From contig JAVKOQ020000019.1 in assembly GCA_031835245.2 (NCBI GenBank), forward strand, positions 62,001 to 126,000: DNA of 64,000 nucleotides, written 5' to 3'. Origin of the DNA: Balamuthia mandrillaris (Eukaryota). Of the stretch, positions 5,314 to 64,000 are shown piece after piece. The first letter of the stretch is position 1. Each line of letters starts with the position of its first letter. The translations under genes were made by a program, and so were the position numbers. Under the pieces are notes generated by a model. That model was not told the DNA's origin, made no database searches, and saw only the letters and a program-made list of their open reading frames with translations.

Positions 5314-5522
5314 TTTTTTGTTGTTTTTTTATATTTATGTAAAGAAATTTTCATCCAATTTCATAGTTGTCGGAAGGGTCGGCAGATATGACTAAAAATA
5401 GTAATATTAATTACGATCGGCGTTTAAATTATTGGTCACAGTTTTTCCTTTTTTTGTTCAAATCTCCGACACAAGTGTTTTATGTCGACTTGTCGACACA
5501 AAGATAAAGCAGAAAGATAGAA

Positions 5523-6593
5523 ATGAAAGGGCGGTTCTTCGTGACCGGCGGAAGCTGTTCTTGGCGGTGGTGGCACGCCTCTTCCTCTGTCGCTCGAAAG
5601 ACCACCAACCCGCGCTGTGGGTTGTGCAAAACTCGGCAACAAGCATCCTCTTCACCCCTCCTTCCCACAAGATACAAGAACACCTCCACAAAAAAGCAAT
5701 CCAAAAATGAGAAAGAAGCACTGGAGAACTACGAAACGGACGGCGACGCTTTGAACTCGCCCCACGTCCCTGTTCTGCTTCACGAGTGCCTCAGGGCTCT
5801 GCACATCCGTGAGGGGGGCCTCTACGTGGACGCCACATTTGGTCGTGGCGGCCACACCCAGGCCATCCTGGAAAGCAACGACACCTGTCGCGTCATCGCC
5901 GTTGACTGCGATGCCACCGCCTTTCAACAGGAGGGTCCTCGCCAGCTCTTCCAAAGGTTCGAGGGGCGAGTGACCCCCATTCACGGGCGTTTTGGGGAGC
6001 TGCACGCCCTCCTGCAGAGCGCGCAGGTGAGCCGAGTGGACGGCATTTTGTTCGACCTTGGCGTGAGCTCCCCACAGCTGGACACTCCCTCCCGTGGCTT
6101 TTCCTTTCGCCCTCACCTCTCCGGCCCTCTCGACATGCGCATGGATCAAACCTCTTCTGCTTCTTCGTCTGTTGTGTCAGCCAAGGAGGTGGTCAATCAG
6201 ATGGGCGAGGAGGAGCTGGCGGACATCCTCTGGCGATATGGCGAAGAGCGAAACTCGAGAAAGATCGCCAGGAACATCGTCAGGTACAGACAAACGGCCG
6301 CCATCGAGTCCACTGCTCAACTGGCGAACATCGTGAGAAGAGCGCAACAGCAGCCGAGAGCAGGAAAAGGAGGGGCAGGTGGGGAGAAGAAAGGCATTGA
6401 CCCTGCCACGAGAACGTTTCAGGCACTTCGTATCTTTGTGAATGACGAGGTTCGTTCTCGTTTCTCCTTTGCTTTTTTATTTGCACTAACGGTTTTCTTT
6501 TAATGCAGTTGGGACAGTTGGAAAAGGGACTTGTAGCTGCAGAAAGCCTGCTTGCAGAAGGTGGGCACCTCGCAGGTTAGTTTTCTCTCTCCC

Positions 6594-10893: not shown

Positions 10894-10978
10894 ACTCTCT
10901 TGTGCTTATTTTTTTTGTTCCTGAAAGAAGAAAGAAGAAACTAGGAGAGAACAAAACTACGAGACAAGAGGGAGGGCA

Positions 10979-12430
10979 ATGCATAACAAGAGGAAGCACA
11001 AGAAAGACAAAGACGGAGCACAAAAGTCACGCCTGCCACCGTCGCCTCACAAGAAGCGACGACGCCAAACAAAGCGGCGCTCGCGCTCTTCTTCCTCTGG
11101 TGCCTTGGAGGAGGCTTCTGCCCTCGGAGAGGAACAACCGGTGACCTTCGCCCAAAAGCGTTGTTGGATAGAAGAGCTGCTCCCAGAGGAACTTCTCTGC
11201 CACATCTTCAACTTCCTGCCCGAAGATGCAGCCGCAGTAGCTGCGAGGACCTGCCGCCGATGGTTTCGCTGCTGCCCAGAAGCACTTCGCCACGTAGTGC
11301 CTCACTACACTCTCTTCCGCCATCTTCCCCTCTTGAAGTGGGCCGTTGGGAGCGACGGCTACACTTTGTTGAAAGACTATCCCTTGGCTTACACCATCCA
11401 CGCCGCGGCAGCTGAGGGCAGCATCGAAGTGGTGGAGTGGTTAGTCTTGAAGAAAAGCGTTCGACGGAACAATGGGCAGTGGGAGTGGGTCGCTGCCGCT
11501 GCTTCAGCTGGTCGCCTGGATGTCTTGCGGTGGTTGCACGGACAAGGCTTTGCACTCAGCGACGAAACGGCGTGTGTGAACGCTGCAAAGAAAGGCCATC
11601 TGGACGCTTTGAAATGGTTGCACGTGCATGGCTGCCCTTGGGGCGCTGACACCTGTGAGGCAGCAGCTTTTGGTGGCCGCTTGGCTGTGTTGGACTGGTT
11701 GTTGGCGACCAAACCTGGTGCTTGGAGAAACGTATCCATAAGTGAACTTGTGATGGGACAAGCAAATGCCGAGACGTTGCAGTGGCTTTGCGACAAGTGC
11801 CTCTTGACGGTGGAGCGTTTGCAGCACCTGGGTTCCGCTGCAGCAAGAGTAGGAAACCTGGAGGCACTCAAGTGGGGCACCATGCATGGCTGCTTAAAAC
11901 AAAGCAGCGCAACGTGGTGGGCTGCTACGAGAGGTGATGTAGAAATGCTTCAATGGGCTCATGCAAACGGCTATCCCTGGGACGCAAACACGTGCAGCTG
12001 CGCGGCCATGGCGGGACATTTGGAAGTGCTGAAATGGCTCAGAGGGAACGGTTGTCCTTGGGACGCAACAACCTCTGCCAGCGCTGCGTTGAGTGGACAT
12101 TTGGAGGTGCTCAAGTGGCTCAGAGCGAACGGTTGCCCTTGGGATGAGATCAGCTGCACCAACGCAGCAGGGGCCGGAAAGTTGGAGACGGTGATGTGGC
12201 TGCACGAACAAGGATGTCCTTGGGGGAACGCTACATGCTTTGCAGCGGTGTTGGGTGGCCGCTGGGAGGTCGTCACATGGATCATCAAGCACGGCTGCCC
12301 GCTGCTGCAAGAACAACAAACCAGCATGCTCAGCAACCCGGCCAAGCAGCAATACCAAGAACTTCGTTCGCGCATTGGAGCGGGAACCTTGTTTATTTGT
12401 AAGGACGACACGACACAACTTAGATTATAA
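10979..12430 (+). CDS. Intronless F-box plus ankyrin-like repeat protein
   Basis: Basic NLS-like N-terminus, F-box LPEELLCHIFNFL..ARTCRRW, and repeated AAxxGHLEVLKWLRxNGCPWD units. Confidence 0.88.
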   Translation: MHNKRKHKKDKDGAQKSRLPPSPHKKRRRQTKRRSRSSSSGALEEASALGEEQPVTFAQKRCWIEELLPEELLCHIFNFLPEDAAAVAARTCRRWFRCCPEALRHVVPHYTLFRHLPLLKWAVGSDGYTLLKDYPLAYTIHAAAAEGSIEVVEWLVLKKSVRRNNGQWEWVAAAASAGRLDVLRWLHGQGFALSDETACVNAAKKGHLDALKWLHVHGCPWGADTCEAAAFGGRLAVLDWLLATKPGAWRNVSISELVMGQANAETLQWLCDKCLLTVERLQHLGSAAARVGNLEALKWGTMHGCLKQSSATWWAATRGDVEMLQWAHANGYPWDANTCSCAAMAGHLEVLKWLRGNGCPWDATTSASAALSGHLEVLKWLRANGCPWDEISCTNAAGAGKLETVMWLHEQGCPWGNATCFAAVLGGRWEVVTWIIKHGCPLLQEQQTSMLSNPAKQQYQELRSRIGAGTLFICKDDTTQLRL

Positions 12431-37954: not shown

Positions 37955-39841
37955 ATGAAAGTTGTGGCAACAGTCATACTGTTGGTGCTACTGGTGATTG
38001 TGTCTTTTGGAGGCGAAAATGGGGCTTTTATAGCGATGGTGGAGGCAGGTCAGGAGGACATGAGCGAGCCGCAAGGACCAGGAGCGCGATGCGTTCATAT
38101 TGACGACTTTACGGTGGCCGAGAGAGGGCAATGCAAGGACTACCTCACCTACGAAATGATATACAGCGACGAGAACACACCCTATAGACTTCGATCGCTG
38201 CAGTAAGTCTTTTTTTTTCTCTGCCTATTTATTGTGGAGTACGTTATACGCTAATATTTTTATCATTGTTGTCTTTTAAGGATCTGGTCGACAATACAAG
38301 GCTTGCTTCCTTCGACTTGTCTTGATAGTGGATGGCGAAGCCTGTGTGCTGGAATGTTTAGGTTGGCTCTCGTCTTTTTGTTTCGTTAATTGGTTTCGTT
38401 TTATTATGCCTAATGTATTCGCTGTCATCAGAGAATGTTTGCACATAAATGATACCTCTCCTCCCAATATTACGAACGAGGCAGGGACGAAAGTGGCGAT
38501 CGTTGGGCGGTTTCCCTGCAAGTCCTTGTGCTACGAGACACAGAGACTGTGTCAGGCAGCAGCTGCTAAGTTACTCGCGGAGATGATCAATTCCACCGCC
38601 GGCCTCAGTGCCCTGGACTGTACAAAGGCCTTCCCGCTGATGTGGGGCGTTCCCACATATGAGATCTTTCCCACAGGCCCCAACTACACCGTTCCCGTTA
38701 CTGCAGACGATGGCCAGACCTACTTCAATGCTACCATTCCTTGCTACGATGACAATTTTAATGTTACTGCCGGTTAGTGATGATCTTTTCTTCTTATTGT
38801 TGATGGTATCTTGGTCTTGGTGGTGTTGTCCTTTCTTCTTCTTGTTCTTTTTCTATTGCTGGGGTTCGGTTTCTTCTCAACATTCCTGAACTCTTGTCTT
38901 ACAACAGGAGGTGATATAAAATGTCCAACTGGACTTCATTCTACCGGCATTCCAGGGGAGTGTGCTTTCGACTGCCCTCAACCACTTATCACCGACAACG
39001 AATACCAAGCGGTGGAGGTCATGATGTCTGTCATGGCATGGATCTCCTTGGCCGCCACAGCCTTTGTGGCAGGGTCTTACCTGCTGGTGGCCTCCAAGAG
39101 GAAGTTTCCAGCGAACCTGCCATTGTTCTTCGTGGTGGCGGTGGGGGGTCGCACTTTGGCATTCTGTGTGGGAAGCATGGTGGGTCACGAGGAGGTGTGG
39201 TGTGATGGAGACAAACACTTCAACTCTTTTGGCGATGCTGCTTGCACCATTCAAGGTTTGTTGCCATGCTCGTTTTCTTTGGACTGCTGCACGTTCATCT
39301 CAAGCTCAAACTAAACCAAAAGGAATACTGTTCGTGTACTTCACATGGGCAGGGGCATTGTGGTGGCTGACCATCACTCTCAACCTCTTCTTCACTCTCG
39401 TTCTCTCCTGGCAGCCTAGTCAACACTTTCTCTTTACTCTTCCTTGCCTCAGCACTACATCCTACGAACAGCAGCAACAGCCACAAAAGAAGCATAAGGA
39501 CACCAAAAAAGGGCAAGTGTCGTTGGTGGAAGTGGTGTTCCACGCATGTTGTTGGGGAGTTCCTTTCATTCCTCTGATCATCGCGTTGAGCGGGCAACAA
39601 CTGGGCTATGCTGGATCTAGCTTCTGGTGCACCATCCATTCCGGCGATGGTGGCGTCGTGTTTGAAGGAAGCGCAGAAGGAACCACTCACTCGGGCTCGG
39701 AAGAGCACAACCTGTGGAACCTCATGCTGCTGACAGTTCCCATTTTGGTGTTGGTCTTCATCGGTGTGGTCCTGTTGATCATCGCTGCAGTAGTTGGTTA
39801 CAAGGTGATTATCACGTCCTTTTTATTTGCTCGTATTCTTG

Positions 39842-39873
<32 letters not shown>

Positions 39874-40473
39874 CTCATTGTGTTTTTCTTTGCTTGAATG
39901 CACGAACAGCGATCAAGAGAAGGATGGCAGTTTCTCATCCGGCAATGGCGGCTGTTCGCCTTCCTGCTGCTCTACGTGTGGATCTACACCTTCGTCTTCA
40001 GCTTCCAGATCCATTTCAACTACGTGCAGGAGGCCCAGTACGAAGCCTACGACGACTACATCAACTGCCTCTTCATCTCCAACGTTCAAGACCTGGTAAT
40101 CAATCCTGTCGAGGACGATATCCATTGCGAGTTGAGGCAGGAAGTCAGCTATGCTTTGTGGTTTGTAGTGACATTCAACGAGGTCAGTCAGGGCTTGTTC
40201 GTCTTTCTCATCTTTGGCACCTCCGGGGAGATTTGGAGCAAATGGCGTTTGGCCTTGTGGCAGTGCAGATGGAGGGCTGCTCTTGCTTCGGATGGTTCCA
40301 CTTCGTTGGGAGGAGGTGGGAGAGGCCGCCCTTCCTCTTCCAATTCTTCGGGGCAGCACAAGGAAGTGGTGGTGGTGGAGGGTGTGACCATGAAAGAGTT
40401 TACTTCCGAAGAGACAACAGAAGAGGAGGATGAGTACAGCAGCATGGAGGATGAGGAGGACGAAAGTGCGTAA
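37955..40473 (+). CDS. Frizzled/Smoothened-like GPCR, copy 1
   Basis: Signal peptide, cysteine-rich domain (C..YLTY, LCAGMFREC, RFPCKSLC), CAFDCPQP linker, 7TM (KRKFPANLP, CTIQGILFVYF..A..LWW, FWC, RQWRLFAF, QGLFVFLIFGTS). Confidence 0.88.
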
Positions 40474-40898
40474 CTTTTTTGGGGTGCGAAAATGTACAAA
40501 AAAAAATTAAAAATATCGATAAATATGAAATCAATATCAGATAAAGGAAATACTATCGATAATCAGTGAAATATTCTTCAGCACGGCAAATAAAGCAAAC
40601 AAAATCAATGATTTCTTCATAAAGGAAATACTATCGATTATCAGTGAAAATATCTTCTGCAGGGTAAATAAATCGAAGATTTTTTTTTAATATCTTAATG
40701 ACGGTAACGCAGACGAATGGACTCGCGCTGGTCCTGCTGTCTTCTGGGATACATTACATAAACGCGCAGATCTGAAGAGCCAAAAAAAAACCTAAGCATA
40801 ATGCAAAGTTTCTTGTTTTTTTTTATTTTGGCTCAGCAGACAACGTGGTTCCTTTTCGCAACGGAACCAAGGTTGACAGGGATCCAGGGCGCAAAGGC

Positions 40899-43412
40899 AT
40901 GAAGGCACCCACCGCTGCGGCAGTCGTGGCGGTACTGCTGCTGGTTGTGAGCGGAACAGCGGAGGGGGGTAAGGAGGAGGTGAGCGAGCCGCAAGGACCC
41001 GGCGCGCGGTGTGTCCATATCGACAACTTCACGACGGCGGAGCGAGGGCCTTGCAAGGACTACCTCACCTACCAGCTGATCTACACCGACGACAACGCAG
41101 CGTTTCGTTTTGCCGCTGTACAGTTCGTATTATTTTTAGTTTTTTTGAGTTTGTGCTATTTTTCCGCTTCAACTCGGTGTAACTGTCTTCCATGGACAAA
41201 AGGTTGTGGACGAGGTTGCAAGGCTTTGTGGCAGAGCCCTGTCTGGGCAGTTCGTGGCAGAAGTTATGTGCCGGAATGTTTCGGTGCGTCGTTCAATGTT
41301 GTGCGTCTTCCAGTTCCTTCTCCCTTAGCCCTTTTCTCTCTTCTTTCTTTTTCTTCTCTCTTCTCTCTTCTCTCTTCTCTTTTCTCTCCTCTCTTCTCTC
41401 TCCGCTCTCATCTTTCCTTCTCTGTTTCTCTCACGCTCTTTCTCTCTCGCTCCTCTCCTCTTGCTCTCTAGTCATCTTTCCTTTGCTTCTTACGTAGTGT
41501 TTTTTATCGGCCTTTTTCTGTATGTTTATTACAGAGAGTGCATGCGCATTCCTGATCCATCAGCACCATCCAACGTGGCCATCGTTGGGCGTTATCAATG
41601 TAGAAGCGTTTGCGTGCAGAACCAAGGTTTCTGCCAAGAAGCAGTTAAGGAGATCATTAAGCTGACTGGCAACATCACAACCGTGGATGAGCTGCTTGAC
41701 TGCAAGGTGCCTTCAGAGTTGACTTGGGGAGCTCCTTCTTACGACATCTTTCCTGACGGAAACTATACAGTGGGGGTATCAGCAGATGAAGGGCTTAGCT
41801 TTTTCAACACCACCATTCCATGTTATGAAGATAACCTCAACCTCACTGCTGGTTCGTAGCCGTCGCTTGTTCTTGTTCTTCGTCTCCTTCTCCTTCTTCT
41901 TCTTTGTCTTCTTATTCCTCCTCTTCTTCCGTTGTAGTGCCATCTGTAGAGTGTCCAGATGGGCTACATCCAACAGGGGAGCCAGGAGCTTGCGCCTTTG
42001 ACTGTCCTCAACCGGTCATCACCAACAACGAATACCAGGCGGTGGAGGTCATGATGTCCGTCATGGCATGGATCTCCTTGGCCGCCACAGCCTTTGTGGC
42101 AGGGTCTTACCTGCTGGTGGCTTCCAAGAGGAAGTTTCCAGCGAACCTGCCATTGTTCTTCGTGGTGGCGGTGGGGGGTCGCACCTTGGCATTCTGTGTG
42201 GGAAGCATGGTGGGTCATGAGGAGGTGTGGTGTGATGGAGACAAACACTTCAACTCTTTTGGCGATGCTGCTTGCACCATTCAAGGTTTGTTGCCTGCCA
42301 TTGCTCGTTTTCTTTGGACTGCTTCACGTTCATCTTATCCTTAAAGTAAACCAAAAGGAATACTGTTCGTGTACTTCACATGGGCAGGAGCATTGTGGTG
42401 GCTGACCATCACTCTCAACCTCTTCTTCACTCTCGTTCTCTCCTGGCAACATGATCACCTCCGACTCTATTCTCTTCCTTTCCTTCGTCGTTCTTCCCTT
42501 CAACAACAGCAAACTAGAAAAAAAGGAGTGTCGTTGGTGGAAGTGGTGTTCCACGCATGTTGTTGGGGGATTCCTCTCATTCCTCTGATCATCGCGTTGA
42601 GCGGACAACAATTGGGCTATGCTGGAGCCAGCTTCTGGTGCACCATCCATTCCGGCCAAGGCGAAGTGGTGTTTGAAGGAAGCGCAGAAGGCACCACTCA
42701 CTCGGGCTCGGACGAAGACAACCTGTGGAATCTTATGTTGTTGACGGTGCCAATATTGGTATTTGTCTTTGTGGGTGTTGTTTTGTTGCTTACCACCGCC
42801 GTCTTTGGATACAAGGTGAGAGAACCTTATCTCTTTCTCCATGTAATGCTTTGTTATTCATTCTTTTCATAGAAATCACAAGAAGGGTGGCAGTTCCTCA
42901 TCCGACAATGGCGGCTGTTCGCCTTCCTGCTGCTCTACGTGTGGATCTACACCTTCGTCTTCAGCTTCCAGATCCACTTCAACTACGTGCAGGAGGCCCA
43001 ATACGAAGCCTACGACGACTACATCAACTGCCTCTACATACAAGCCGTTCAGAAGATCACCAATCCATCACAACCGCTGACTTGCGAGTTGAGCCAAGAA
43101 GTCAACTTTGGGTTGTGGTTCGTGGTGACGTTCAACGAGGTCAGTCAGGGCTTGTTCGTCTTTCTCATCTTTGGCACCTCCGCTGGGGTGTTCCAGGCAT
43201 GGCGTTCCGCATTGTTGGAGTGTCGATGGAGCGCAGGCGAGGACATAGACCCTTCCAGAGGGTCATCAAGTGGCAAACATTCCTCTTCGGGGGTGGTGGT
43301 AGTTGTGGAGGGAGTAAACATGAAGGAGTTCTCGGAGGAGACGTCCAAGGAAGAGGAAAGCTCCGACACAGAAGAAGAGGAAGACGAGGATGCTTCTGAA
43401 GAACTGTATTGA
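40899..43412 (+). CDS. Frizzled/Smoothened-like GPCR, copy 2
   Basis: Same architecture and intron positions as copy 1. Confidence 0.88.
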
Positions 43413-43870
43413 TGGTTTTATTAATGCTTGGACATATTGTCAATGGAAGAAAAAAAAAAGAGAACCTCTTCTGGGAGCACCGGTAGTGTCCTCGCATTCT
43501 GTTCTTGTTCTTCTAGTGGTTCAAGGCTGCTCGCCAAGCATAATTATCAAGAGGGAAGAACAAGAAAATGCACTATGACCAGAATAACAAGAACACTGCT
43601 GGAGAAGAAAAGGTGAAGGGGAAGAGTCCGGCCAGTTGCAACAGCACGCGAAAGCGAGAGATGCAATGGTGCAGAGTTGTTAGGCGACATATTGGACAAC
43701 CGAAGAAAATGGAAAGACATCTATAACGGTATTATACGATTAATTACGGACCATATATCCGGTCGATGAGATCTTGGCGAGTGTTTCAAGAAAGAAAGGG
43801 TCGGCCTGTGCTGTTTGTTTCTATCCTGTGCAAGAAGACGCGGAGAAGAGGGCGAACGAATACATTGGCG

Positions 43871-46498
43871 ATGGCGATAACGCCAAGGACAACGAGCCCG
43901 CGGGTGGTTTGTTTGTGCGTTTTGTTGCTGTTCGAGCTGGAGTTGGCAGCGGCGCAGGTTCAATATATCAGCGAGCCGCAGGGACCGGGAGCGAGCTGCG
44001 TTCATGTGGACAACGTCACAGCGGAGCTGGGCGTGTGCAGGAACTACATTACCTACGAGTACATCTACAGCGATGACCATATGTCTTCACGGTTTGACGT
44101 GCTACGGTGAGTTTAACTTCTCCTTTGGTCTTGAACTTGTTGTTGTAACATTTTGTAAAAAAAACAAGATTGTTTGTACAAACACAGGGAGTTGTTGCTG
44201 AACCTTGTTTGAGCACAAGTTTTCGCAAGATCTGCGCCGGTCTCTTTAGGTTTGTGTTGCTTCTTGTGCATTCACAAAAAGAAATATATGTAGTCCTCCT
44301 GACCATTACGTTCAATAGAGAATGCCTGGCGCTTCCTTCTTCAACGGCCGACCAAGTTGCTGTGGTGGGGCGTTATCCCTGCCGAAGCCTCTGCAAAGAC
44401 TCTGAAGTCGCCTGCATAGAAGTCCTCTCCAAGCTGTTAATCGGGGTGGGCCTCACGGCAGAGACTGTACTCGACTGTGATGTCCCTTGGTCGGTCATGT
44501 GGGGCACACCTTCTCACGACATCTTTCCAGAAGGAAACTACACTGTGGAGGTGTCTCCGAACGTGCTAGAGATTCACGACCTGGTGAATGTCACCATTTC
44601 GTGTTATGATGGCAATCGCAACCTTACTGTTGGTAATGCTCGCTTTCTTTGCGTCTATCTTCTCTCTTCTTTCTTCTATCATCTTTCCTCTCATGCTTTC
44701 TTCTCCTGCCTTCGCTCGTATTAGCGCTCATCCCTTTGTTATCTTATTTCTTCTTACTCGCTCTCTCTCTCTCTCTCTCTCTCTTTTCTGGCGTCTTTCT
44801 TCTCTCTTTTGTCTTTTTGTTGTTTGACTCGTTTGTCTCTTTCTCACCTTTGCATGTAGAGCCACTAGTGGAGTGTCCAGATGGGCTACATCCAACAGGG
44901 GAGCCAGGAGCTTGCGCCTTTGACTGTCCTCAACCGGTCATCACCAACAACGAATACCAGGCGGTGGAGGTCATGATGTCCGTCATGGCATGGATCTCCT
45001 TGGCTGCCACGGCCTTGGTGATTGGCTCTTACATCTTGGTTGCTGGCAAGAGGAAGTTCCCAGCGAACCTGCCATTGTTCTTCGTGGTGGCGGTGGGAGG
45101 TCGCACCTTGGCATTCTGTGTGGGAAGCATGGTGGGTCATGAGGAGGTGTGGTGCGATGGAGACAAACACTTCAACTCTTTTGGCGATGCTGCTTGCACC
45201 ATTCAAGGTTTGTTGCCTGCCATTCGTTCTTTTTCTTTCTTTTCGTTAATGCTTTCTGCTTCTGGTGCGATAAACCAAAAGGAATACTGTTCGTGTACTT
45301 CACATGGGCAGGAGCATTGTGGTGGCTGACCATCACTCTCAACCTCTTCTTCACCATCGTTCTTTCCTGGAAGCTCGACCGCTACTGCATTCTCCCTCTT
45401 CTTTCCCCACGCCTCGCCCCTACCAATGTGGAGGAGGACGGCAGGGCCAAACGAAGGAAGAGTGGCGGAGTGTCGTTGGTGGAAGTGGTGTTCCAAACGC
45501 TTTGTTGGGGCCTTCCTTTCATCCCTCTGATCATCGCGTTGAGCGGACAACAACTGGGCTATGCTGGAGCCAGCTTCTGGTGCACCATCCATTCTGGTGA
45601 CGGCGAGGTGATTTTTCAGGGCAGCAGCGAAGGAACCACTCACTCGGGCTCGGAAGAGCACAACCTGTGGAACCTCATGTTGCTGACGGTCCCAATTCTT
45701 GTGTTGGTCTTCATCGGCGTCGTTCTATTGATCGTCACTGCTATAGTCGGTTACAAGGTGAGTAAACCTTGTTTGTCTTTCTTTTCATTGTGCTTCTCCG
45801 TCTTCTTCTTCTTCTCCCTTCTGTGCCTTTCAGGAGAGTGTTACTTATGGCGTTGTCTATGTTCTCCATAGAAATCGAGAGAAGGGTGGCAGTTCCTTAT
45901 CCGGCAATGGCGGCTGTTCGCCTTCCTGCTGCTCTACGTGTGGATCTACACCTTTGTCTTCAGCTTCCAGATCCACTTCAACTACGTGCAGGAGGCTCAG
46001 TACAAGGCCTACAACGACTATATCGACTGCCTCTACACCCATTCGGTGAGGGACCTGGTGTCCTCGCTGGCGGAGGGGATAGAGGAGTGCTCCCTGCGGC
46101 AGGAGGTCAATTTTGGGTTGTGGTTGGTGGTGACCTTCAACGAGGTCAGTCAGGGCTTGTTCGTCTTTCTCATCTTTGGCACCTCCGCTGGGGTGTTCCA
46201 GGCCTGGCGGTCGGCCTTGTGGCATTGTCGGTGGAGGGCGGCCTCGGGGAGCTCGAGCTCTGGAGGCACGCCGTCCTCGGGGCAGACGAAGGAGGTCATG
46301 GTAGTGGTGGAGGGGGTGACGATGAAAGAGTTCACGGAGGATGGCGGGACGGAGGCAGAGGCCAGCGAGGCAGAAGACGAAGAGGAGTACAGCCAAGAGG
46401 AGGAAGAGGAGCGAATGTGGATAATATATGTAAAGAAAATTGTAAATTATTTATTTTTTGATTTTTCATTGGATAGTTTTTCAAAAAGAGATCGATAA
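43871..46498 (+). CDS. Frizzled/Smoothened-like GPCR, copy 3 (3' end uncertain)
   Basis: Same architecture and intron positions as copies 1 and 2. Confidence 0.86.
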
Positions 46499-46696
46499 CT
46501 TGAGGAGTCTTATAATATTGAAAGTTCAATTTTTACTTTTTAAGGTGATGTGAAAACGTTATTAAAAAGGTAAAAGTTAAACACAAAATTTTATACGTAA
46601 AGCGAAAAAGAAAGCGAACCGCAGAGTTGCCGCACGCACAACGCTTTGATTTTTTTTTAACACTTGCCGAAAAGATAAAGTGGTTGAACACACACC

Positions 46697-54743: not shown

Positions 54744-54905
54744 TTGGCTATGTGGGGAAGTGGTGGTGTTGGCTGCTGCTGTCGACGTAAAAAGCAGTTG
54801 CCCATCCCCCGGAAAACTTTCTTGGAAAAGTTTGCAACAGTGCACTCTCACAGCCCATTCTCCCTTTGTGGAGAGCAAGAGAGTTAAGAGAGCCTCAAAG
54901 AGAAG

Positions 54906-55739
54906 ATGCAACAAACCCAAATAACTGCCTTTATCTCTCGCTCTCCCACCAAAAGAAGGAAAGAGCAAGAGGAGAGCGATGAAGCACAAGCCTCGGAGCA
55001 GAAGAGGCCCAAGAACAAGGAGGAGGCGGTGAAGCGCAGTTCCACCAAGAGCCGTCGCAAAGGCAAAGAAATAGTTTCAGAGGAAGTGGAAGAAGAAACC
55101 GAAAACGAACCGTCACAGACTTCCTCCTCTTCCACCACCGCCAATGCCATAAAACCAACCTTTCAACGCAAAGAAATAAGCGAGGGCTGCTTTGTTAGCT
55201 TCTGCCCTAACTACCTCAACCCCTCCGAGGCCTCGGAGCTCTTTCAAGAGCTCCTCCAGCTGCCCAACTTCATCCAGGGGCAGTTCAAGATGTTTGGCAA
55301 ACCCGTCAAGACGCCCCGCATGCAGTCCTGGATGTCCGACCCCGAGCTGACCGCCAGCCTCTACCAGCGGCAACCCGCCCTGCCATGGTCCCCCCGGCTG
55401 GCCAAGCTGAGGGATGAAATGGGGGCGCTCTGCGGAGGGTGTCACTTTGACTACGTGCTCATCAACCTGTACCGAGACGGAAGGGACTACATCGGCTTTC
55501 ATGCGGACAAGGAGGCCATCCCGGAGGGGAAGAACAAGATAGCCTCGCTGTCCCTGGGAGAGCCACGGCGGTTCCTGATGCGGCGGTACAAGGAGAAGAA
55601 GGCCTCCCTGGAGTACCTGTTGACCCCAGGCAGCGTTATTTTGATGGAGGGCGAGACGCAGCGCCACTGGAAGCACAGCGTGCCGAAAGAGCCCAAGCGC
55701 ACGCGGCCTCGCATTAACCTCACCTTTCGCATCGCGTAG
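54906..55739 (+). CDS. AlkB-family 2OG-Fe(II) dioxygenase (ALKBH2/3-like DNA repair demethylase), intronless
   Basis: KMFGK...PRMQSW, VLINLYRDGRDYIGFHADKE, IASLSLGEPRRF, GSVILMEGETQRHWKHSVPK, RINLTFR. Confidence 0.93.
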   Translation: MQQTQITAFISRSPTKRRKEQEESDEAQASEQKRPKNKEEAVKRSSTKSRRKGKEIVSEEVEEETENEPSQTSSSSTTANAIKPTFQRKEISEGCFVSFCPNYLNPSEASELFQELLQLPNFIQGQFKMFGKPVKTPRMQSWMSDPELTASLYQRQPALPWSPRLAKLRDEMGALCGGCHFDYVLINLYRDGRDYIGFHADKEAIPEGKNKIASLSLGEPRRFLMRRYKEKKASLEYLLTPGSVILMEGETQRHWKHSVPKEPKRTRPRINLTFRIA

Positions 55740-55794: not shown

Positions 55795-55935
55795 GCTCAG
55801 AGCTGTGATCTCTATCTGAAAGTTTCAAACCACCAATCAAAAATCAAAACATAGGCTGAACTTACCATAAAAAGGCTATGCTATATTTGTCTCAAGCAGA
55901 GATCTTCCACGTCGACAAAAATGTATTGCTCCTCT
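55795..55935 (-). repeat. Dispersed ~140-bp intergenic repeat, copy 2 (inverted relative to copy 1)
   Basis: Reverse complement of 35168-35326, with small indels. Confidence 0.85.
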
Positions 55936-56675: not shown

Positions 56676-59600
56676 ATGAACGCGTCGTCGTTTTTGTTGT
56701 CCTTGCTGTTTTCGCTAGTGGTCGGCGGCTGTTTGGCAGCGACGCCGGCGTGCAGGTTCACTCCCGAGGCGGATGACTTTGTGATATATCACCAAGAAAG
56801 TGATTCGGAGACCCTTCGCTTGACCCACAACGGCACGCTCTATGCCTGTGGAGCGCGTGACCTGTGCGAGCTCTTCGAGGACCCTGTCATCTGGTTGTTG
56901 GAGGGCACCGCCGGAGTGTATCGCCCCCACAACGGTTCGCTGTTGGTGCCGGCTTCGTTTGATAACCTCAACAACGACTTTGATGGGCTGACTCACGTGG
57001 CTCCCGCTGAAGGACCTGGTGCTTCACCTCCTCCCCCTTCCTTTGTTGTTGTTTTCCGCCACGCTTACCAACTCGAAACAAAAGGAGCACGCTTGGTGTT
57101 TTGGGGCAGCAGAGCAGCGTTCAGAGCGGGTGTGGTGAGCGGCGAGCAATGGAACGCTGACAATGTGGGAGAGGGCTCCGCGGCCTTCGGCTTGGACACC
57201 ACTGCCTTTGGCAGCGGGTCTCTCGCCTATGGCGTTTGTAAGTCCATTGCTTCTCTCTTATTATGTTGATGATTAACCCTTCTTTCTTTATTGTTGCTCG
57301 ATGCAAGCCTCGGAGTCAAATATAACCTCTTATGGAGGCGGATCCCTGGCTGGCGGTTTCGGTTTGTCATTCTCTTTCTCGCTCGCTCTCTTGCTTTCAA
57401 CTTTCAAGTTAACCTCTCTGCTGCCAATTGTGAAAACAGTGCTAACAGGGGCTAGCATCTCCGCCTCAGGGGCGGGTTCTTTCGCTCATGGTCAAGGTTG
57501 TTTTTTTTTCTTTGCTTTTTTCTGCCTTTAGCTGAATCCCTTTTTTTATTTTGCTTCCTCGTTCCTTATTCTTTGTCTTGTTCTGCTGTGACTGTTTACA
57601 TAGGCGACTCCTTGGGCAGCGTTGAAGCCGTGGGTGTCGGCTCAACAGCTGTTGGCCATGGTATTCCTCTCTTCATTTTCTTGTTTGTTTTAGTTCTGTT
57701 CTAATGCTGAAGCTTGTGTCTTACCTGCAGTCTCTGGAGGAGATATACACGCTATTGCCCCTGGGTCACTTGTTGGTGGATCTGGTAAGTTCGCGCCTCC
57801 TCTTCTCCCACTCCATTGCTTCTATAACCAAACCTCCCTTGAATTGTTACCATTTTGAACTAACAATACAAAAACAACAATAAACAGCCAGCGGCAGTTC
57901 CCGCGTATCAACCACTGGCCCAGGTTCCATTGCCTATGGCGAAGGTTTGTGTTCTCCCTCCAACTTATCTGCTTTTTTTGTGCCAACCGTTGGTGTGGTT
58001 CTTTAGCACACACCGGGGGATCAATCAGCGCTAAGAGTCCTGGCGCAGTTGCATTTGGACAAGGTACCTTATTCCAACCGTACAACGCTCTATAAAAGCC
58101 ATTTGCACGCGTTGTATTAATTTTCTGCTGTTTCATAGCCTCCAACTCAAACATTACAGCGGAGGGTTCTGGTGCTTTCGCAATCGGAGCAGGTTTCAAT
58201 CTCTCTCTCCTCCTTTGACATGTTTATCTTTTCTTGTTTATCTCTCTCTCTCTCTCTCTCTCTCTCCCGCTCTCCCTCTTCCTCATTTAACTTTCGACTG
58301 ATGATGACACATGCAGCAATTGAGGGAGAGATCAGGGCGGTAGCATCGGGTGCAATGGCAGGAGGTTATGGTAAGCAGCCTTGTCCCTTCTTTCTCTTCG
58401 GAACATCGAATGCATAGTCTTTACAATCTTTGTTCCTGCTTCTCTTCCACTTTGGTAGCTCAAGGTAATACAAGCGAGATCATGGCTAGTGGTTCTGGTG
58501 CCATTGCGTTTGGTTATGGTGCTTACTCCTCTTATTCCTTCTTCTCCTTCGCCTCTTCCACCTTGTACTTTGGCTGATGATGACATTCAGCGAATGAGGG
58601 AGCTATCAGTGCACTTTCAGCGGGTACACTGGCCGGAGGTTATGGTAAGCAGCTCTGCCCTTCCTCTTCTTTCTCTTCGGAGCATCACATGCACGGTTTT
58701 ACAATCTTTGTTCCTGCTTCTCTTCCACTTTTGCAGCTCAAGGTGACAGCGAGATCACGACTAGTAGTTCTGGTTCCATTGCTTTTGGTTATGGTGTTTA
58801 GCCCTCTCCCTGTTCAACTTATCTTATTTACTCCTCTACCTCCTCCCTGTCCTCCTTGTGCTTTGACTGATGATGCGCATTCAGCGAATGATGGAGATAT
58901 CATGGCGGTTGCACCAGGTGCACTGGTGGGAGGATTAGGTAAGCAGCCTTGTCCCTTCTTCCTCTTCGGAACATCACATGCACGGTCCTTTACACTCTTT
59001 CTTCCTGCTTCTCTTCCACTTTTACAGCTGAAGCTGGCAGCACGATCTTTGGTGCTGGTGCAGGAGCTATTGCATTTGGTTATGGTGCTTACTCAACTTC
59101 CTCCCCTCGTTTTTCTACTCCTCTTGTTCCGCCTTCCCTTCTTCCTCTTGCAACTTTTGGCTGATGATGACACATGCAGCAAATAATGGAGATATCATGG
59201 CGGTTGCATCAGGTGCACTGGTAGGAGGTTATGGTAAGCAGCCTTGTCCCTTCTTCCTCTTCGGAACATCACATGCACGGTCTTTTACACTCTTTCTTCC
59301 TGCTTCTCTTCCACTTTGGCAGCTCAAAGTGACGGCGAGATCATGGCTTCTAATTCCGGTGCCATTGCGTTTGGTTATGGTGCTTGCCCCTCTTCCTCCT
59401 CTCTTTTTTTTTTGCTGCTCCTCTTGGAATATTAAATGCACACCCCTCTTCAATCTTTGTTCCCACTCTTGCAGCTGAAGGTAACACAGGCCAAATCACG
59501 GCTGCTGGCGCAGGTTCCAGTGTGTTTGGTTATGGTGCTTACTCCTCTTCCTCCCCTCTTTTTTCTGCCTTCTTATTCCTTCTGCTGCATCTCCTTTTGA

Positions 59601-62600
59601 CTGATGATGTCACATGCAGCGTATGAGGGAGCTATCAGGGCGGTTTCATCAGGTGCACTGGCAGGAGGTTATGGTAAGCAGCCTTGTCCCTTCTCCCTCT
59701 TCGGAACATCACATGCACAGTCTTTTACACTCTGTGTTCCTGCTTCTCTTCCACTTTTGCAGCTCAAGGTGACAGCGAGATCTCGGCTAGTGGTTCTGGC
59801 GCCAGTGCATTTGGTTATGGTGCTTACTCCTCTCCCTCCTCTCCTTTTTGTTGTGCTCCTCTTGGAATCATAAACTCACCCTCCTTTTCAATCTTTGTTC
59901 CCACCCACTCTTGCAGCTCAAGGTAGTACTGGCGAGATCCTGGCTTCTGGTACAGGTGCCAGTGCGTTTGGTTATGGTGCTTACTCCTCTCTTATTTCTG
60001 CTCCTTTTGTTCCTTCTGCTCCTCTCCCTCTGCTTCCGTCACATTTTGGCTGATGATGACACATGCAGCAAGTGATGGAGCTATCAGGGCGGTTTCATCG
60101 GGTGCAATGACAGGAGGTTATGGTAAGCAGCCTTGTCCCTTCTTCCTCTTCGGAACATCACATGCACGGTCTTTTACACTCTGTGTTCCTGCTTCTCTTC
60201 CACTTTTGCAGCTCAAGGTGACAGCGAGATCACAGCTAGTGGTTCTGGCGCCATCGCGTTTGGTTATGGTGCTTGCTCCTCCCCACTTCAACTTTGCTTA
60301 TCTGCTTCTCTTTCTCCTCCCTCTCCTCCTCTGTCACATTTTGGCTGATGAAGACATATGCAGCAAATGATGGAGATATCACGGCAGTTTCATCGGGTGC
60401 ACTGGCAGGAGGTTATGGTAAGCAGCCTTGCCCCTTCTTCCTCTTTGGAACATCACATGCACAGTCTTTTACACTCTGTGTTCCTGCTTCTCTTCCACTT
60501 TTGCAGCTCAAGGTGACAGCGAGATCTCGGCTAGTGGTTCTGGCGCCAGTGCATTTGGTTATGGTGCTTACTCCTCTCCCTCCTCTCCTTTTTGTTGTGC
60601 TCCTCTTGGAATCATAAACTCACCCTCCTTTTCAATCTTTGTTCCCACCCACTCTTGCAGCTCAAGGTAGTACTGGCGAGATCCTGGCTTCTGGTACAGG
60701 TGCCAGTGCGTTTGGTTATGGTGCTTACTCCTCTCTTATTTCTGCTCCTTTTGTTCCTTCCTGCTCCTCCTCCTCTTCTTCCGTCACCTTTTGGCTGATG
60801 AAGACATGCAGCGAATGAGGGAGCTATCAGGGCGGTTTCATCGGGTGCACTGGCAGGAGGTTATGGTAAGCAGCCTTGTCCCTTCTTTCTCTTCGGAACA
60901 TCGCATGCACGGTCTTTTACAATCTTTCTTCCTGCTTCTCTTCCACTTTTGCAGCTCAAGGTGACAGCGAGATCTCGGCTAGTGGTTCTGGCGCCAGTGC
61001 GTTTGGTTTTGGTGCTTACTCCTCTTCCTCTCCTCTCTTTTTGTTGTGCTTCTCCTCTTGGAATCATAAACTCACCCTCCTTTTCAATCTTTGTTCCCAC
61101 TCTTGCAGCTCAAGGTAGTACTGGCGAGATCCTGGCTGCTGGTACAGGTGCCAGTGCGTTTGGTTTTGGTGCTTACTCCCCTTCCTCCTCTCCTTTTTTA
61201 TGCTCCTCTCCTACCCTTCTTCCTCCGTCACCTTTTGGCTGATGACACATGCAGCGAATGATGGACCTATCAGGGCGGTTTCATCGGGTGCACTGGCAGG
61301 AGGTTATGGTAAGCAGCCTTGTCCCTTCTTCCTCTTTGGAGCATCACATGCACGGTCTTTTACACTCTTTCTTCCTGCTTCTCTTCCACTTTGGCAGCTC
61401 TAGGTAATACAAGCGAGATCATAGCTTCTGGTGCAGGTGCCAGTGCGTTTGGTTTTGGTGCTTACTCCTCTTCCTCCTCTCCTCTTCACTTCAACTTATT
61501 TTGTTTACTCCTCTACCTCCTTCCTCTCTTCCTCCTTCACCTTTTGACTGATGATGACACATGCAGCGAATGAGGGCGAGATCAGGGCGGTTTCATCGGG
61601 TGCACTAGCAGGAGGTTTAGGTAAGCAGCCTTGTCCCTTCTTCCTCTTCGGAACATCACATGCACGGTCCTTTACACTCTTTGTTTCTGCTTCTCTCCCA
61701 CTTTGGCAGCTCAAGGTGACAGCGAGATCATGGCTAGTGGTTCTGGCGCCAGTGCGTTTGGTTTTGGTGCTTACTCCTCTTCCTCTCCTCTCTTTTTGCT
61801 GTGCTTCTCCTCTTGGAATCATAAACTCACCTCCTTTTCAATCTTTGTTCCCACTCTTGCAGCTCAAGGTAGTACTGGCGAGATCCTGGCTGCTGGTACA
61901 GGTGCCAGTGCGTTTGGTTTTGGTGCTTACTCCGCTTCCTCTTCCCTCTTTTTTATGCTCCTCTTCCTCCTCCCTCTCTTTCTCATTCACCTTTTGGCTG
62001 ATGATGACACATGCAGCGAATGACGGCGAGATCATGGCGGTTTCATCAGGTGCACTGGCAGGAGGTTATGGTAAGCAGCCTTGTCCCTTCTTCCTCTTTG
62101 GAGCATCACATGCACGGTCTCTTACAATCTTTGTTCTTGATACTCTTCCACTTTGGCAGCCCAAGGTAATACTGGCGAGATCCTTGCTGCTGGTACAGGT
62201 GCCAGTGCGTTTGGCTATGGTGCTTACTCCTCTTCCCCTTCTCCTTTTCTGCTCCTCTTCCTCTTCCCCCTCTTTCTCCCTCACCTTTTGGCTGATGACA
62301 CATGCAGCAAATGATGGAGCTATCACGGCAGTTGCAACAGGTACACTGGCCGGAGGTTATGGTAAGCAGCCCAGTCATTCCCTTTATCCTTTCGATCATC
62401 GAATGCACGGTCTTTTACACTCTGTGTTCCTGCTTCTCTTCCACTCTTGCAGCCCAAGGTAATACAAGCGAGATCATGGCTTCTGGTGCAGGTGCCAGTG
62501 CATTTGGTTTTGGTGCTTACTCCATTTCCTCCTCTCCTCTTCCTCCTCCCCCTCTTTCTCCCTCACCCTTTTGGCTGATGATGACACATGCAGCGAATGA

Positions 62601-64000
62601 GGGCGATATCAGGGCGGTTTCATCAGGTGCACTGGCAGGAGGTTATGGTAAGCAGCCTTGTTCCTTCTCCCTCTTTGGAACATCACATGCACGGTCTTTT
62701 ACAATCTTTGTTCCTGCTTCTCTTCCACTTTTGCAGCCCAAGGTGACAGCGAGATCATAGCTGCTGGTGCAGGTGCCAGTGCGTTTGGTTTTGGTGCTTA
62801 CTCCTCTTCACTTCAACTTTTTTTGTTTGCTCCTCTTCCTCGCCCCCTCTTCCTCCACCACCTTTTGGCTGATGATGACACATGCAGCGAATGATGGCGA
62901 GATCAGTGCGGTAGCATCGGGTGCAACGGCAGGAGGTCATGGTAAGCAGCCTTGTCCCATCTTCCTCTTCGGAACATCACATGCACGCGGTCTTTTACAC
63001 TCTTTCTTCCTGCTTCTCTTCCACTTTTGCAGCCCAAGGTAATACAAGCGAGATCATAGCTTCTGGTGCAGGTGCCAGTGCATTTGGTTTTGGTGCTTAC
63101 TCCTCTTCACTTCAACTTATTTTGTTTACTCCTCTACCTCCCTCTCTTCCTCCTTCACATTTTGGCTGATGATAACACATGCAGCGAATGAGGGTGAGAT
63201 CAGGGCGGTTTCACCGGGTGCACTGGCAGGAGGTTATGGTAAGCAGCCTTGTCCCTTCTTCCTCTTTGGAACATCACATGCACAGTCTTTTACAATCTTT
63301 CTTCCTGCTTCTCTTCCACTTTGGCAGCTCAAGGTGATACAAGCGAGATTCTAGCTGCTGGTGCAGGTGCCAGTGCGTTTGGTTTTGGTGCTTACTCCTC
63401 TCCCTCCTCCCTCTTTTTTATGCTCCTCTTCTTCCTCGCTCTCTTCCTCCTTCACATTTTGGCTGATGATGACACATGCAGCGAATGAGGGTGAGATCAG
63501 GGCGGTTTCACCGGGTGCACTGGCAGGAGGTTATGGTAAGCAGCCTTGTCCCTTCTTCCTCTTTGGAGCATTACATGCACGGTCGTTTACAATCTTTGTT
63601 CCTGCTTCTCTTCCACTTTTGCAGCTCAAGCTGACAGCGAGATCATAGCCAGTAGTTCTGGTGCCAGTGCATTTGGTTATGGTGCTTACTCCTCTTCCTT
63701 CTCTTTTTGTTGTGCTGCTCCTCTTGGAATATTCAATGCGCCCTCCTTTTCAATCTTTGTTCCCACTCTTGCAGCTCAAGGTAACACAAGCGAGATCCTG
63801 GCTGCTGGTACAGGTGCCAGTGCGTTTGGTTATGGTGCTTACTCCTCTCTTATTTCTGCTTCTCTTGTTCCTTCCTGCTCCTCCTCCTCTTCTTCCGTCA
63901 CCTTTTGGCTGATGAAGACATGCAGCGAATGAGGGAGCTATCAGGGCGGTTTCGCCGGGTGCACTGGCAAGAGGTTATGGTAAGCATTTTTTTCCGTTTG
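56676..64000 (+). CDS. Secreted YadA/tail-fibre-head-like repeat protein encoded by a micro-exon array (3' end outside window)
   Basis: Signal peptide MNASSFLLSLLFSLVVGGCLA. Exon 1 (56676-57237) ends GARLVFWGSRAAFRAGVVSGEQWNADNVGEGSAAFGLDTTAFGSGSLAYG. About 46 phase-1 exons of 54/57/60 nt follow (e.g. 57308-57361, 57440-57496, 57604-57660, 57731-57784, 58317-58370), each one Gly/Ala-rich repeat. Confidence 0.82.
58300..63985 (+). repeat. Tandem exon-intron repeat array (units of ~145-155 bp grouped in pairs or triplets)
   Basis: Recurring blocks gatgacacatgcag, gtaagcagccttgtcccttc, ccacttttgcagctcaagg and gtgcttactcc. Confidence 0.95.

What the first reader, a model, noticed from the sequence alone, without database searches (positions are those of the whole stretch)
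57080..57237. Bacterial trimeric adhesin / tail-fibre head motif in an intron-rich amoeba gene
Seen: KGARLVFWGSRAAFRAGVVSGEQWNADNVGEGSAAFGLDTTAFGSGSLAYG behind a eukaryotic signal peptide. From recalled family knowledge, G-x-R-h-h-W-x-x-x-K/R-AAFRAG...QW...N-h-G-x-x-S-x-A-x-G introduces YadA-like (Hep_Hag) beta-roll head repeats in bacterial proteins, often with a C-terminal Peptidase S74 chaperone. Inference: horizontal acquisition from prey bacteria or phage, then intron gain at repeat boundaries and lengthening of the ~14-aa turn to 18-20 aa.
Basis: partly seen in the sequence, partly recalled or inferred. Interest (0 to 1): 0.78.

Follow-up and report, generated by a model that had tools for sequence, protein, structure and literature searches.

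The report
Bacterial-type fibre gene in predatory amoeba
An amoeba, likely Balamuthia, has a spliced gene of 48 or more exons, one small exon per protein turn, whose start matches a fibre module found in many bacteria and some viruses, so the gene was likely borrowed and is predicted to make a long secreted fibre that would help the amoeba grip the cells it feeds on.

Summary
The motif is real. The gene has at least 48 exons, 46 of them 54-60 nt, each one repeat turn, and runs off the window. RNA data support the splicing. Exon 2 is the N-terminal cap of a prokaryote/virus fibre family: 907 hits; of 30 scanned, 30 carry YadA_head, 17 Peptidase_S74, none an autotransporter anchor. The only named hits that look like genuine eukaryote genes are two Balamuthia mandrillaris proteins; one shares a private leader and signature with this gene, which points to one acquisition. 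Corrections: the 18-20-aa turn already exists in prokaryote-type and phage-like proteins; 38 of 47 introns are copies made by exon+intron duplication; the donor is unresolved (bacteria favoured, giant viruses not rejected). A paralog folds as a confident two-stranded beta-solenoid, but with the hand opposite to a bacterial control. No trimer model could be run, and the C-terminus is unseen. Best reading: a borrowed, likely trimeric surface fibre, analogous to Bdellovibrio MAT fibres. It is not a trimeric autotransporter.

The parts
56676..56738 (+). Predicted signal peptide (21 aa)
   Evidence: Sequence inspection and hydropathy peak 2.85; both Balamuthia paralogs start the same way; cleavage site inferred
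56676..57018 (+). Exon 1: signal peptide plus a leader (about aa 46-106) shared with the Balamuthia paralog's inter-module linker
   Evidence: Leader profile from P0002 hits only this exon, 19.3 bits, E 5e-4 among 15,362 targets; next best E 1.1; BLASTP
57019..57084 (+). Intron 1, 66 nt, in frame, phase 1, GT-AG
   Evidence: RNA depth arithmetic for two reads
57085..57237 (+). Exon 2: fibre cap motif plus one 14-aa YadA-type turn (the finding)
   Evidence: Pfam YadA_head 15.3 bits, E 0.028, below the 25-bit cut-off
57308..58192 (+). Exons 3-9: seven diverged microexons (54-57 nt), one 18-19-aa turn each, with old, mutually unrelated introns
   Evidence: introns 1-9 have best mutual identity 0.56-0.67; no RNA read was laid on these exons; their turns match long-turn environmental proteins at up to 42.6 bits versus at most 14.7 in 10 shuffles
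58317..63979 (+). Exons 10-48: 39 microexons of three types (54, 57, 60 nt) amplified together with their introns in about 295- and 449-bp units
   Evidence: RNA contigs and reads run from one exon type into the next at the predicted splice sites
63980..64000 (+). Start of a further intron; the gene is open at the window end, so neck, coiled coil or anchor are unseen

Best explanation
This is a spliced amoeba gene (likely Balamuthia mandrillaris) whose exon 2 is homologous to the cap of a prokaryote/virus fibre family; it was likely acquired once by horizontal transfer and is predicted to encode a long secreted beta-roll fibre, likely trimeric, that would act as a contact or adhesion fibre on the cell surface. 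Shown: gene structure, splicing, homology of the cap and of the long turns, kinship with a Balamuthia paralog. Predicted: each 18-20-aa exon adds one two-stranded turn, so 46 or more turns stack into a rod; the cap closes its N-terminal end. Inferred: after transfer the gene took a eukaryotic signal peptide and phase-1 introns at one position of the turn; because every microexon is a multiple of three and phase 1, unequal crossing-over of exon+intron units lengthens the rod without breaking the frame, which explains the recent amplification. Inferred by analogy only: trimerisation (S74-bearing relatives; coiled coil at the paralog's end) and a role in gripping prey or host cells, as Bdellovibrio MAT fibres do. 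My odds by step: homology 0.97, horizontal origin 0.85, beta-solenoid rod 0.9, trimer 0.7, adhesion to cells as main role 0.5.
For: Gene: 48 exons, 47 of 47 introns GT-AG and phase 1, 62-124 nt, 1,031 codons without stop; the exon pattern was found once elsewhere on the + strand and never on the - strand. DNA contigs of run X2 overlap across cap and introns (may be the source data). RNA: joint with GT..AG ends from 58370 to 58737 and exon-to-exon loose ends in X6, X3 and X4. Homology: 907 hits at E<=0.001, all 150 listed match through exon 2; best single copy 44.7 bits; 30 of 30 scanned have YadA_head, 17 of 30 S74; 38 of 87 pattern matches in bacterial genomes confirmed, from Bacteroidota, Acidobacteriota, Gemmatimonadota, Bdellovibrionota and others. 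One origin in the amoeba: G-S-R signature in 9 of 9 Balamuthia-type caps and 0 of 615 others; private leader; best ML tree holds them together among bacterial-type caps. Fold: paralog model pLDDT 85-98 per block over residues 91-290, two strands per turn, C-terminal helix 363-409; bacterial control with the same cap matches BpaC, CbpF, UspA1, YadA (Z 16-20). Long turns plus S74 occur together in P0046, P0181, P0178 and P0163; S74 ensures trimerisation (PMC10769870, passage). Exons 1-2 have GC3 0.70, like the neighbouring gene's 0.75, so the transfer is not recent.
Against: The paralog model superposes well on tailspikes and MpAFP (rmsd 2.7-3.3 A) and badly on UspA1, BpaC and CbpF (7.2-8.6 A), the mirror of the control (CbpF 2.6 A, MpAFP 9.2 A): its hand looks opposite to YadA heads (hands of these entries recalled). 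Foldseek found no PDB match at E<=0.001 for it. Pfam sees neither YadA_head nor S74 in either Balamuthia paralog. The neck match is weak: 6 of 11 necks at 9-13 bits. The first 93-row quick tree and the 41-row quick tree did not join the window cap to the paralog's caps; 52 columns resolve little. Only 30 of 186 proteins were looked up for a source name and 757 of the 907 hits were not listed, so other eukaryote members may exist. RNA reads on the repeats are mostly under 95% alike and may come from other copies or paralogs; exons 3-9 had no reads. pN/pS among recent exon copies is 0.71-0.84, weak constraint. No membrane anchor is visible in the window or at the paralog's end. No functional data exist.
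Confidence: 0.6

Rival explanations
1. Same protein, different route: the module came from a giant virus of protists rather than from a bacterium, through infection and integration.
For: Two contigs labelled GVMAG encode collagen + cap + beta-roll proteins (L047, L060). The best viral fold matches of the paralog model are a Fadolivirus protein (E 1e-4) and collagen-like proteins of Mimivirus, Moumouvirus, Megavirus and Klosneuvirus (E 1e-3 to 6e-2). Trees joining Balamuthia with these caps are not rejected (p-AU 0.33 and 0.24). B. mandrillaris is reported not to feed on Gram-negative bacteria (PMC4326988).
Against: Nearest caps by identity are prokaryote-type (up to 62%); the GVMAG caps carry insertions and lack the W/Y before the signature, and their turns are of another type; the best tree is 4-7 log-likelihood units better without them.
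Confidence: 0.25
2. The fibre is a structural part of the cyst wall or extracellular coat, not a prey or host adhesin: an acidic, glycosylated rod that spaces or cross-links wall layers.
For: The model is acidic (83 D/E versus 20 K/R) with 10 N-glycosylation sequons, has no visible anchor, and its turns are near-identical copies, which suits a spacer more than a set of binding sites. Cysts are resistant to denaturing conditions (PMC4326988).
Against: No stage-specific expression data; characterised relatives with such heads are adhesins or receptor-binding fibres; outward-looking positions vary between copies while core positions are fixed (assignment of faces inferred).
Confidence: 0.2
3. The long-turn roll has changed hand and lost the trimer: it is a monomeric right-handed beta-solenoid, like MpAFP or autotransporter passengers, and only the cap is a relic of the trimeric ancestor.
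For: Mirror-image rmsd pattern between paralog model and control; viral models of similar repeats superpose on it; no S74 in the paralog.
Against: Cap, one 14-aa turn and long turns run on in one chain in the window gene and in S74-bearing P0046 and P0181, which should force one hand; the cap has pLDDT about 55 in the paralog model (16 sequences) but 86-91 in the control, as expected if the paralog model took the wrong hand.
Confidence: 0.15
4. The family is an old eukaryote inheritance, hidden in other lineages because microexon genes are mis-annotated.
For: The window's own protein did not appear in any protein search, showing that such genes can be missed; two EukProt entries (Mallomonas, Dinobryon) carry the cap.
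Against: Those two entries fall in one 90%-identity cluster across two genera, have 14-aa turns, S74 and an N-terminus like the Bacteroidota members, so they are likely bacterial contaminants (inferred). The module is spread over many prokaryote phyla and viruses.
Confidence: 0.08

Closest known systems
Unnamed Balamuthia mandrillaris proteins KAL6069532.1 (P0002, 2,919 aa) and KAL6056007.1 (P0156, 309 aa), both 'hypothetical protein'
   Same: Signal-like N-terminus and 18-20-aa turns (both); leader, cap and G-S-R signature (P0002).
   Different: P0002 is ten short modules (cap, a few turns, neck) ending in a predicted coiled coil; the window gene has one cap and one uninterrupted run of 46+ turns. 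P0156 has turns only.
Prokaryote 'tail fiber domain-containing' proteins with YadA_head (PF05658) and Peptidase_S74 (PF13884), e.g. MCB9988796.1 (P0007), P0166, and the long-turn members P0046, P0181
   Same: Cap motif, first 14-aa turn, in some members long turns, weakly the neck; N-terminal secretion signals.
   Different: No introns; most have 14-aa turns (1,059 of 1,349 spacings); many end in S74, which the complete Balamuthia paralog lacks. Their function is not tested in anything I read.
Trimeric autotransporter adhesin heads (YadA, UspA1, BpaC, CbpF, BoaA)
   Same: Two-stranded beta-roll built from small-x-A-x-G repeats; the bacterial control model matches them at Z 16-20; highest sequence identity among fold matches of the paralog model (15-19%).
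   Different: No beta-barrel anchor family in 30 of 30 relatives scanned or in the paralog; longer turn; predicted hand of the paralog model is opposite; eukaryotic secretion.
Bdellovibrio MAT fibres (Caulton et al. 2024, PMC10769870; abstract, outline and passages read)
   Same: A predator using secreted, phage-fibre-like trimers, with and without S74, at its surface; cap-bearing relatives occur in Bdellovibrionota MAGs. Analogy of function.
   Different: MATs are intertwined trimeric beta-helices with a conserved 130-aa N-terminal domain and varied tips; the paper does not mention YadA. Homology to MATs was not tested.
Giant-virus collagen-like fibre proteins (Mimivirus collagen-like 6/7 and relatives; GVMAG proteins in L047, L060)
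   Same: Best viral fold matches; cap motif in the two GVMAG proteins.
   Different: Collagen stalk, other turn sequence in the GVMAG proteins, no signal peptide; sequence homology of the Mimiviridae entries to this gene was not tested.

Membership tests
Trimeric autotransporter adhesin (type Vc) | C-terminal outer-membrane beta-barrel anchor (YadA_anchor) | tested here: not met
   No such Pfam hit in the complete paralog P0002 or in 30 of 30 prokaryote-type relatives; the window gene's own end is outside the window
Trimeric autotransporter adhesin (type Vc) | YadA-like head repeats (PF05658 above cut-off) | tested here: inconclusive
   Exon 2: 15.3 bits, below 25; paralogs: no hit; relatives: 28 of 30 above cut-off
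Trimeric autotransporter adhesin (type Vc) | Left-handed beta-roll | tested here: inconclusive
   Control with the same cap superposes on TAA heads; paralog model is a beta-solenoid of apparently opposite hand, cap poorly modelled
Trimeric autotransporter adhesin (type Vc) | Homotrimer | not tested
   The complex predictor was not available
Cap + beta-roll + neck (+S74) fibre family of prokaryotes and viruses | Cap motif before the first turn | tested here: met
   63.5 bits on a profile built without amoeba sequences
Cap + beta-roll + neck (+S74) fibre family of prokaryotes and viruses | Small-x-A-x-G repeats following the cap | tested here: met
   One 14-aa turn, then 46 turns of 18-20 aa; top 20 matches of exons 3-9 are long-turn proteins
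Cap + beta-roll + neck (+S74) fibre family of prokaryotes and viruses | Neck after the roll | tested here: inconclusive
   Not in the window; 6 of 11 paralog necks score 9-13 bits on a profile of 192 prokaryote-type necks
S74-chaperoned fibres (phage tail fibres, S74-type MATs) | C-terminal Peptidase_S74 | tested here: inconclusive
   Absent from complete paralog P0002; C-terminus of the window gene unseen
Bdellovibrio MAT superfamily | Conserved about 130-aa beta-rich domain after the signal peptide; intertwined beta-helix | not tested
   No MAT sequence was fetched; no MAT entry was among the 50 rows shown or 115
Horizontally acquired eukaryote gene | Physically in the eukaryote genome, with spliceosomal introns, transcribed | tested here: met
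   eukaryote-type neighbours
Horizontally acquired eukaryote gene | Nested with support among donor-group sequences; absent from related eukaryotes | tested here: inconclusive
   Nested in the best tree but 52 columns give little support; other amoeba genomes could not be searched

The most novel reading that the evidence does not exclude
A cell-eating amoeba captured a prey-gripping fibre module of the kind used by predatory bacteria and viruses, freed it from its S74 chaperone, and rebuilt it as an exon-per-turn rod whose length and surface are tuned by duplicating (and perhaps alternatively splicing) single-turn exons: the first eukaryotic family of YadA-like trimeric adhesive fibres, used for prey or host-cell contact.
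Probability: 0.3. Interest if true: 0.8.

Novelty: new variant of a known kind. Interest (0 to 1): 0.6.

Why it matters
YadA-type beta-roll fibres are known from bacteria and viruses. A spliced, expanded family in an amoeba would extend them to eukaryote genomes and give a clear case of a borrowed repeat protein being rewired so that one exon equals one structural turn. For Balamuthia, whose surface molecules are poorly defined (the review passages I read name only an inferred galactose-binding protein; PMC4326988), it offers concrete candidates for surface fibres and lineage-specific antigens for diagnosis. It also flags an unnamed long-turn (18-20 aa) beta-roll that Pfam misses and for which no close solved structure was found.

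Tried and rejected
Contamination or chimeric assembly: rejected; cap exon is joined to intron-rich DNA in overlapping contigs and is spliced. Whole genome: none held, so paralogs and the gene's end could not be searched. PHROGs and NCBIfam: 0 of 3 queries matched. PDB by sequence: nothing under E 1. tblastn of exon 2 against phages and plasmids: no match. Word-based search with exon 2: 0 of 47 candidates. Trimer prediction: not available, nothing was folded; this says nothing on binding. ESM Atlas: not answered. Run search: no RNA holder listed; three raw RNA runs were read at 3-5% only, so depth gives no expression level. First lay at 92% likeness listed no joint in the gene. Viral-contig scans with P0165 and P0166 found no relative; with P0154, 7 of 8 loci matched only its C-terminal domain, and in the eighth (L001, a terminase-portal-capsid module) the relative's repeats are more diverged. 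YadA and close heads were absent from the Foldseek PDB rows of the paralog model. In one search, 4 of the 9 non-Balamuthia 'long-turn' rows (P0177, P0184, P0150, P0007) are artefacts of my anchor pattern and were dropped, leaving 5 cap copies in 3 proteins. The Sigma54, IML1 and SMPDase Pfam rows for P0002 have no passing stretch and were dismissed. The careful 93-row tree did not finish and one tree script timed out. Paper searches (listings only) showed no title or abstract describing such a family in an amoeba; none of the 40 rows holds 'Balamuthia'; PMC10471605 has no 'adhes', 'YadA', 'tail fiber' or 'intron' in its main text (supplements not seen). The library lacks most subscription papers. 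Earlier scan notes: nothing relevant.

Full report
Observation. The peptide is present on the + strand, in frame from 57081. It belongs to a gene starting at ATG 56676 with a hydrophobic signal-like N-terminus. Three lines support this intron: the paralog has a gap there; the spliced junction scores 62.8 bits against the paralog versus 39.1 unspliced; and RNA depth in run X3 adds up to two 150-nt reads that must skip about 66 nt.

Gene anatomy. Downstream are 46 microexons of 54 (20), 57 (14) or 60 (12) nt. All 47 introns are GT-AG, phase 1 and 62-124 nt, and the 1,031 codons have no stop (47 exons came from the scan, one at 60069-60122 was added by hand and checked). Each microexon codes one 18-20-aa repeat with fixed I-x-A and G-x-x-x-x-G positions. 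Introns 1-9 are unrelated to each other (best identity 0.56-0.67), whereas introns 10-47 have near-copies (0.73-1.00), in 295- and 449-bp tandem units. So most introns were multiplied with their exon, not gained one by one. The gene runs off the window. RNA support for the microexons: an X6 contig joins 58370 to 58737 with GT..AG ends, and loose ends in X6, X3 (6 reads) and X4 (3 and 4 reads) continue from one exon type directly into the next. These records are mostly under 95% alike, so they come from other copies, alleles or paralogs; X6 is RNA by guess only; exons 3-9 had no reads.

What exon 2 is. phmmer over 1.84 billion representatives gave 907 hits; all 150 listed match through exon 2. 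Whole-protein E-values are inflated by repeated copies; the best single copy scores 44.7 bits. Of 30 hits scanned, 30 have YadA_head (28 above cut-off), 17 Peptidase_S74, none an autotransporter anchor. One is named 'tail fiber domain-containing protein' of a Rhodospirillales MAG, one comes from a Thermoplasmatota MAG. In bacterial genomes 38 of 87 pattern matches were confirmed, across many phyla including Bdellovibrionota, mostly in proteins whose N-termini look like secretion signals (by eye). In viral contigs 28 of 36 pattern loci hold the cap at 35 bits or more (viral nature not checked one by one), and two contigs labelled as giant-virus MAGs encode collagen + cap + beta-roll proteins. 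A model of a bacterial-type member (P0166) folds the cap with pLDDT 86-91 and matches BpaC, CbpF, UspA1 and YadA heads. The motif is therefore the cap of an anchor-less, often S74-ended beta-roll fibre family.

Eukaryote relatives. The second hit, P0002, is B. mandrillaris KAL6069532.1, ten cap-turns-neck modules and a final predicted coiled coil; P0156 (KAL6056007.1) has the turns only. The window cap and 8 distinct P0002 caps share a G-S-R signature found in 0 of 615 others, and a profile of P0002's leaders finds only window exon 1 among 15,362 targets. With window GC 0.475 against 46.4-46.8% for B. mandrillaris assemblies (PMC10471605, part 2 of 5 read), the window is likely Balamuthia; this is inferred, not shown. 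Two EukProt entries from chrysophytes carry the cap but share one 90% cluster and look like Bacteroidota proteins: likely contaminants. Only 30 of 186 proteins were looked up by name.

The long turn is not an amoebal invention. Most prokaryote-type members have 14-aa turns, but P0046, P0181 and P0003 have cap, a 14-aa turn, then 17-22-aa turns, and P0046 and P0181 end in S74. Cap-less environmental proteins with long turns exist as well, some with neck and S74 (P0163, P0178). The window's exons 3-9 match these best (up to 42.6 bits; at most 14.7 in 10 shuffles).

Origin. On 52 columns, quick trees split the window cap from the paralog's, but the best of three deeper free searches equals the tree with them held together and places them among bacterial-type caps. 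Fold matches in the viral library are led by Mimiviridae proteins. B. mandrillaris is reported to grow on eukaryotic cells and not on Gram-negative bacteria (PMC4326988, passages). Transfer is likely; the donor is open.

Fold. It superposes on tailspikes and MpAFP at 2.7-3.3 A but on TAA heads at 7-9 A; the control shows the reverse. The two models thus have opposite hands. Since cap, 14-aa turn and long turns are continuous in one chain, I think the paralog model more likely took the wrong hand, but this is unresolved. The window's own spliced protein was not folded and no trimer model could be obtained.

Mechanism. Most likely a secreted rod of 46 or more turns, capped at its N-terminus, trimeric like its S74-bearing relatives, held at or released from the cell surface, and used for contact with prey or host cells. 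The nearest working analogy is the Bdellovibrio MAT fibres, surface trimers with and without S74, one of which binds prey glycans (PMC10769870; abstract, outline, passages). Function rests on analogy alone; a cyst-wall or coat role is a real rival.

Verdict. Real, expressed, likely horizontally acquired; works like a YadA-head or tail-fibre rod but is not a trimeric autotransporter. I found no description of it in the searched library. New variant of a known kind; interest 0.6.

Noticed in passing
window 58317-63979: The 54-nt exon copies differ more from each other (mean identity 0.85) than the intron that follows them (0.90); variation sits at a few positions while core residues are fixed. 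Could be surface diversification or a conserved intron element.
   Followed up: partly
window 58644 (run X6): A 449-nt RNA-type contig continues for 255 or more letters with a repeat type not found in the window: either the unseen 3' part of this gene or a further paralog.
   Followed up: no
window 55818-55849: A short stretch behind the upstream gene is matched by many unrelated contigs (summed depth about 400): likely a dispersed repeat element.
   Followed up: no
window 54888-55739: AlkB-like 2OG-Fe(II) oxygenase gene directly upstream (Pfam PF13532).
   Followed up: partly
window 38280-46500: At least three tandem paralogs with a cysteine-rich N-terminus and several hydrophobic segments; resemblance to Frizzled/Smoothened-like receptors is recalled, not tested.
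   Followed up: no
window 10925-12430: Single-frame F-box plus ankyrin-repeat gene.
   Followed up: partly
window 5508-6503: MraW/RsmH-type methyltransferase (PF01795) with a long N-terminal extension, likely organellar.
   Followed up: partly
L066 and L075 (one 181-kb viral contig): Tandem array of seven or more collagen + beta-roll fibre genes, most with a diverged cap, one with an S74 hit; virus type not determined.
   Followed up: partly
P0177, P0184: EukProt entries for Mallomonas annulata and Dinobryon divergens share one 90% cluster and look like Bacteroidota proteins: likely contamination in that data set.
   Followed up: partly
P0001, P0003, P0046, P0180, P0181; L026: Giant (2,300-5,100 aa) multi-cap fibre proteins, several with a shared pilin-like hydrophobic N-terminal segment (resemblance recalled); one such locus is an alphaproteobacterial MAG. 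An unstudied fibre group, perhaps of Micavibrio-like predators.
   Followed up: no
L001:3176-4489: Beta-roll-like fibre gene placed right after terminase and portal in a phage head module, not in a tail cluster.
   Followed up: partly
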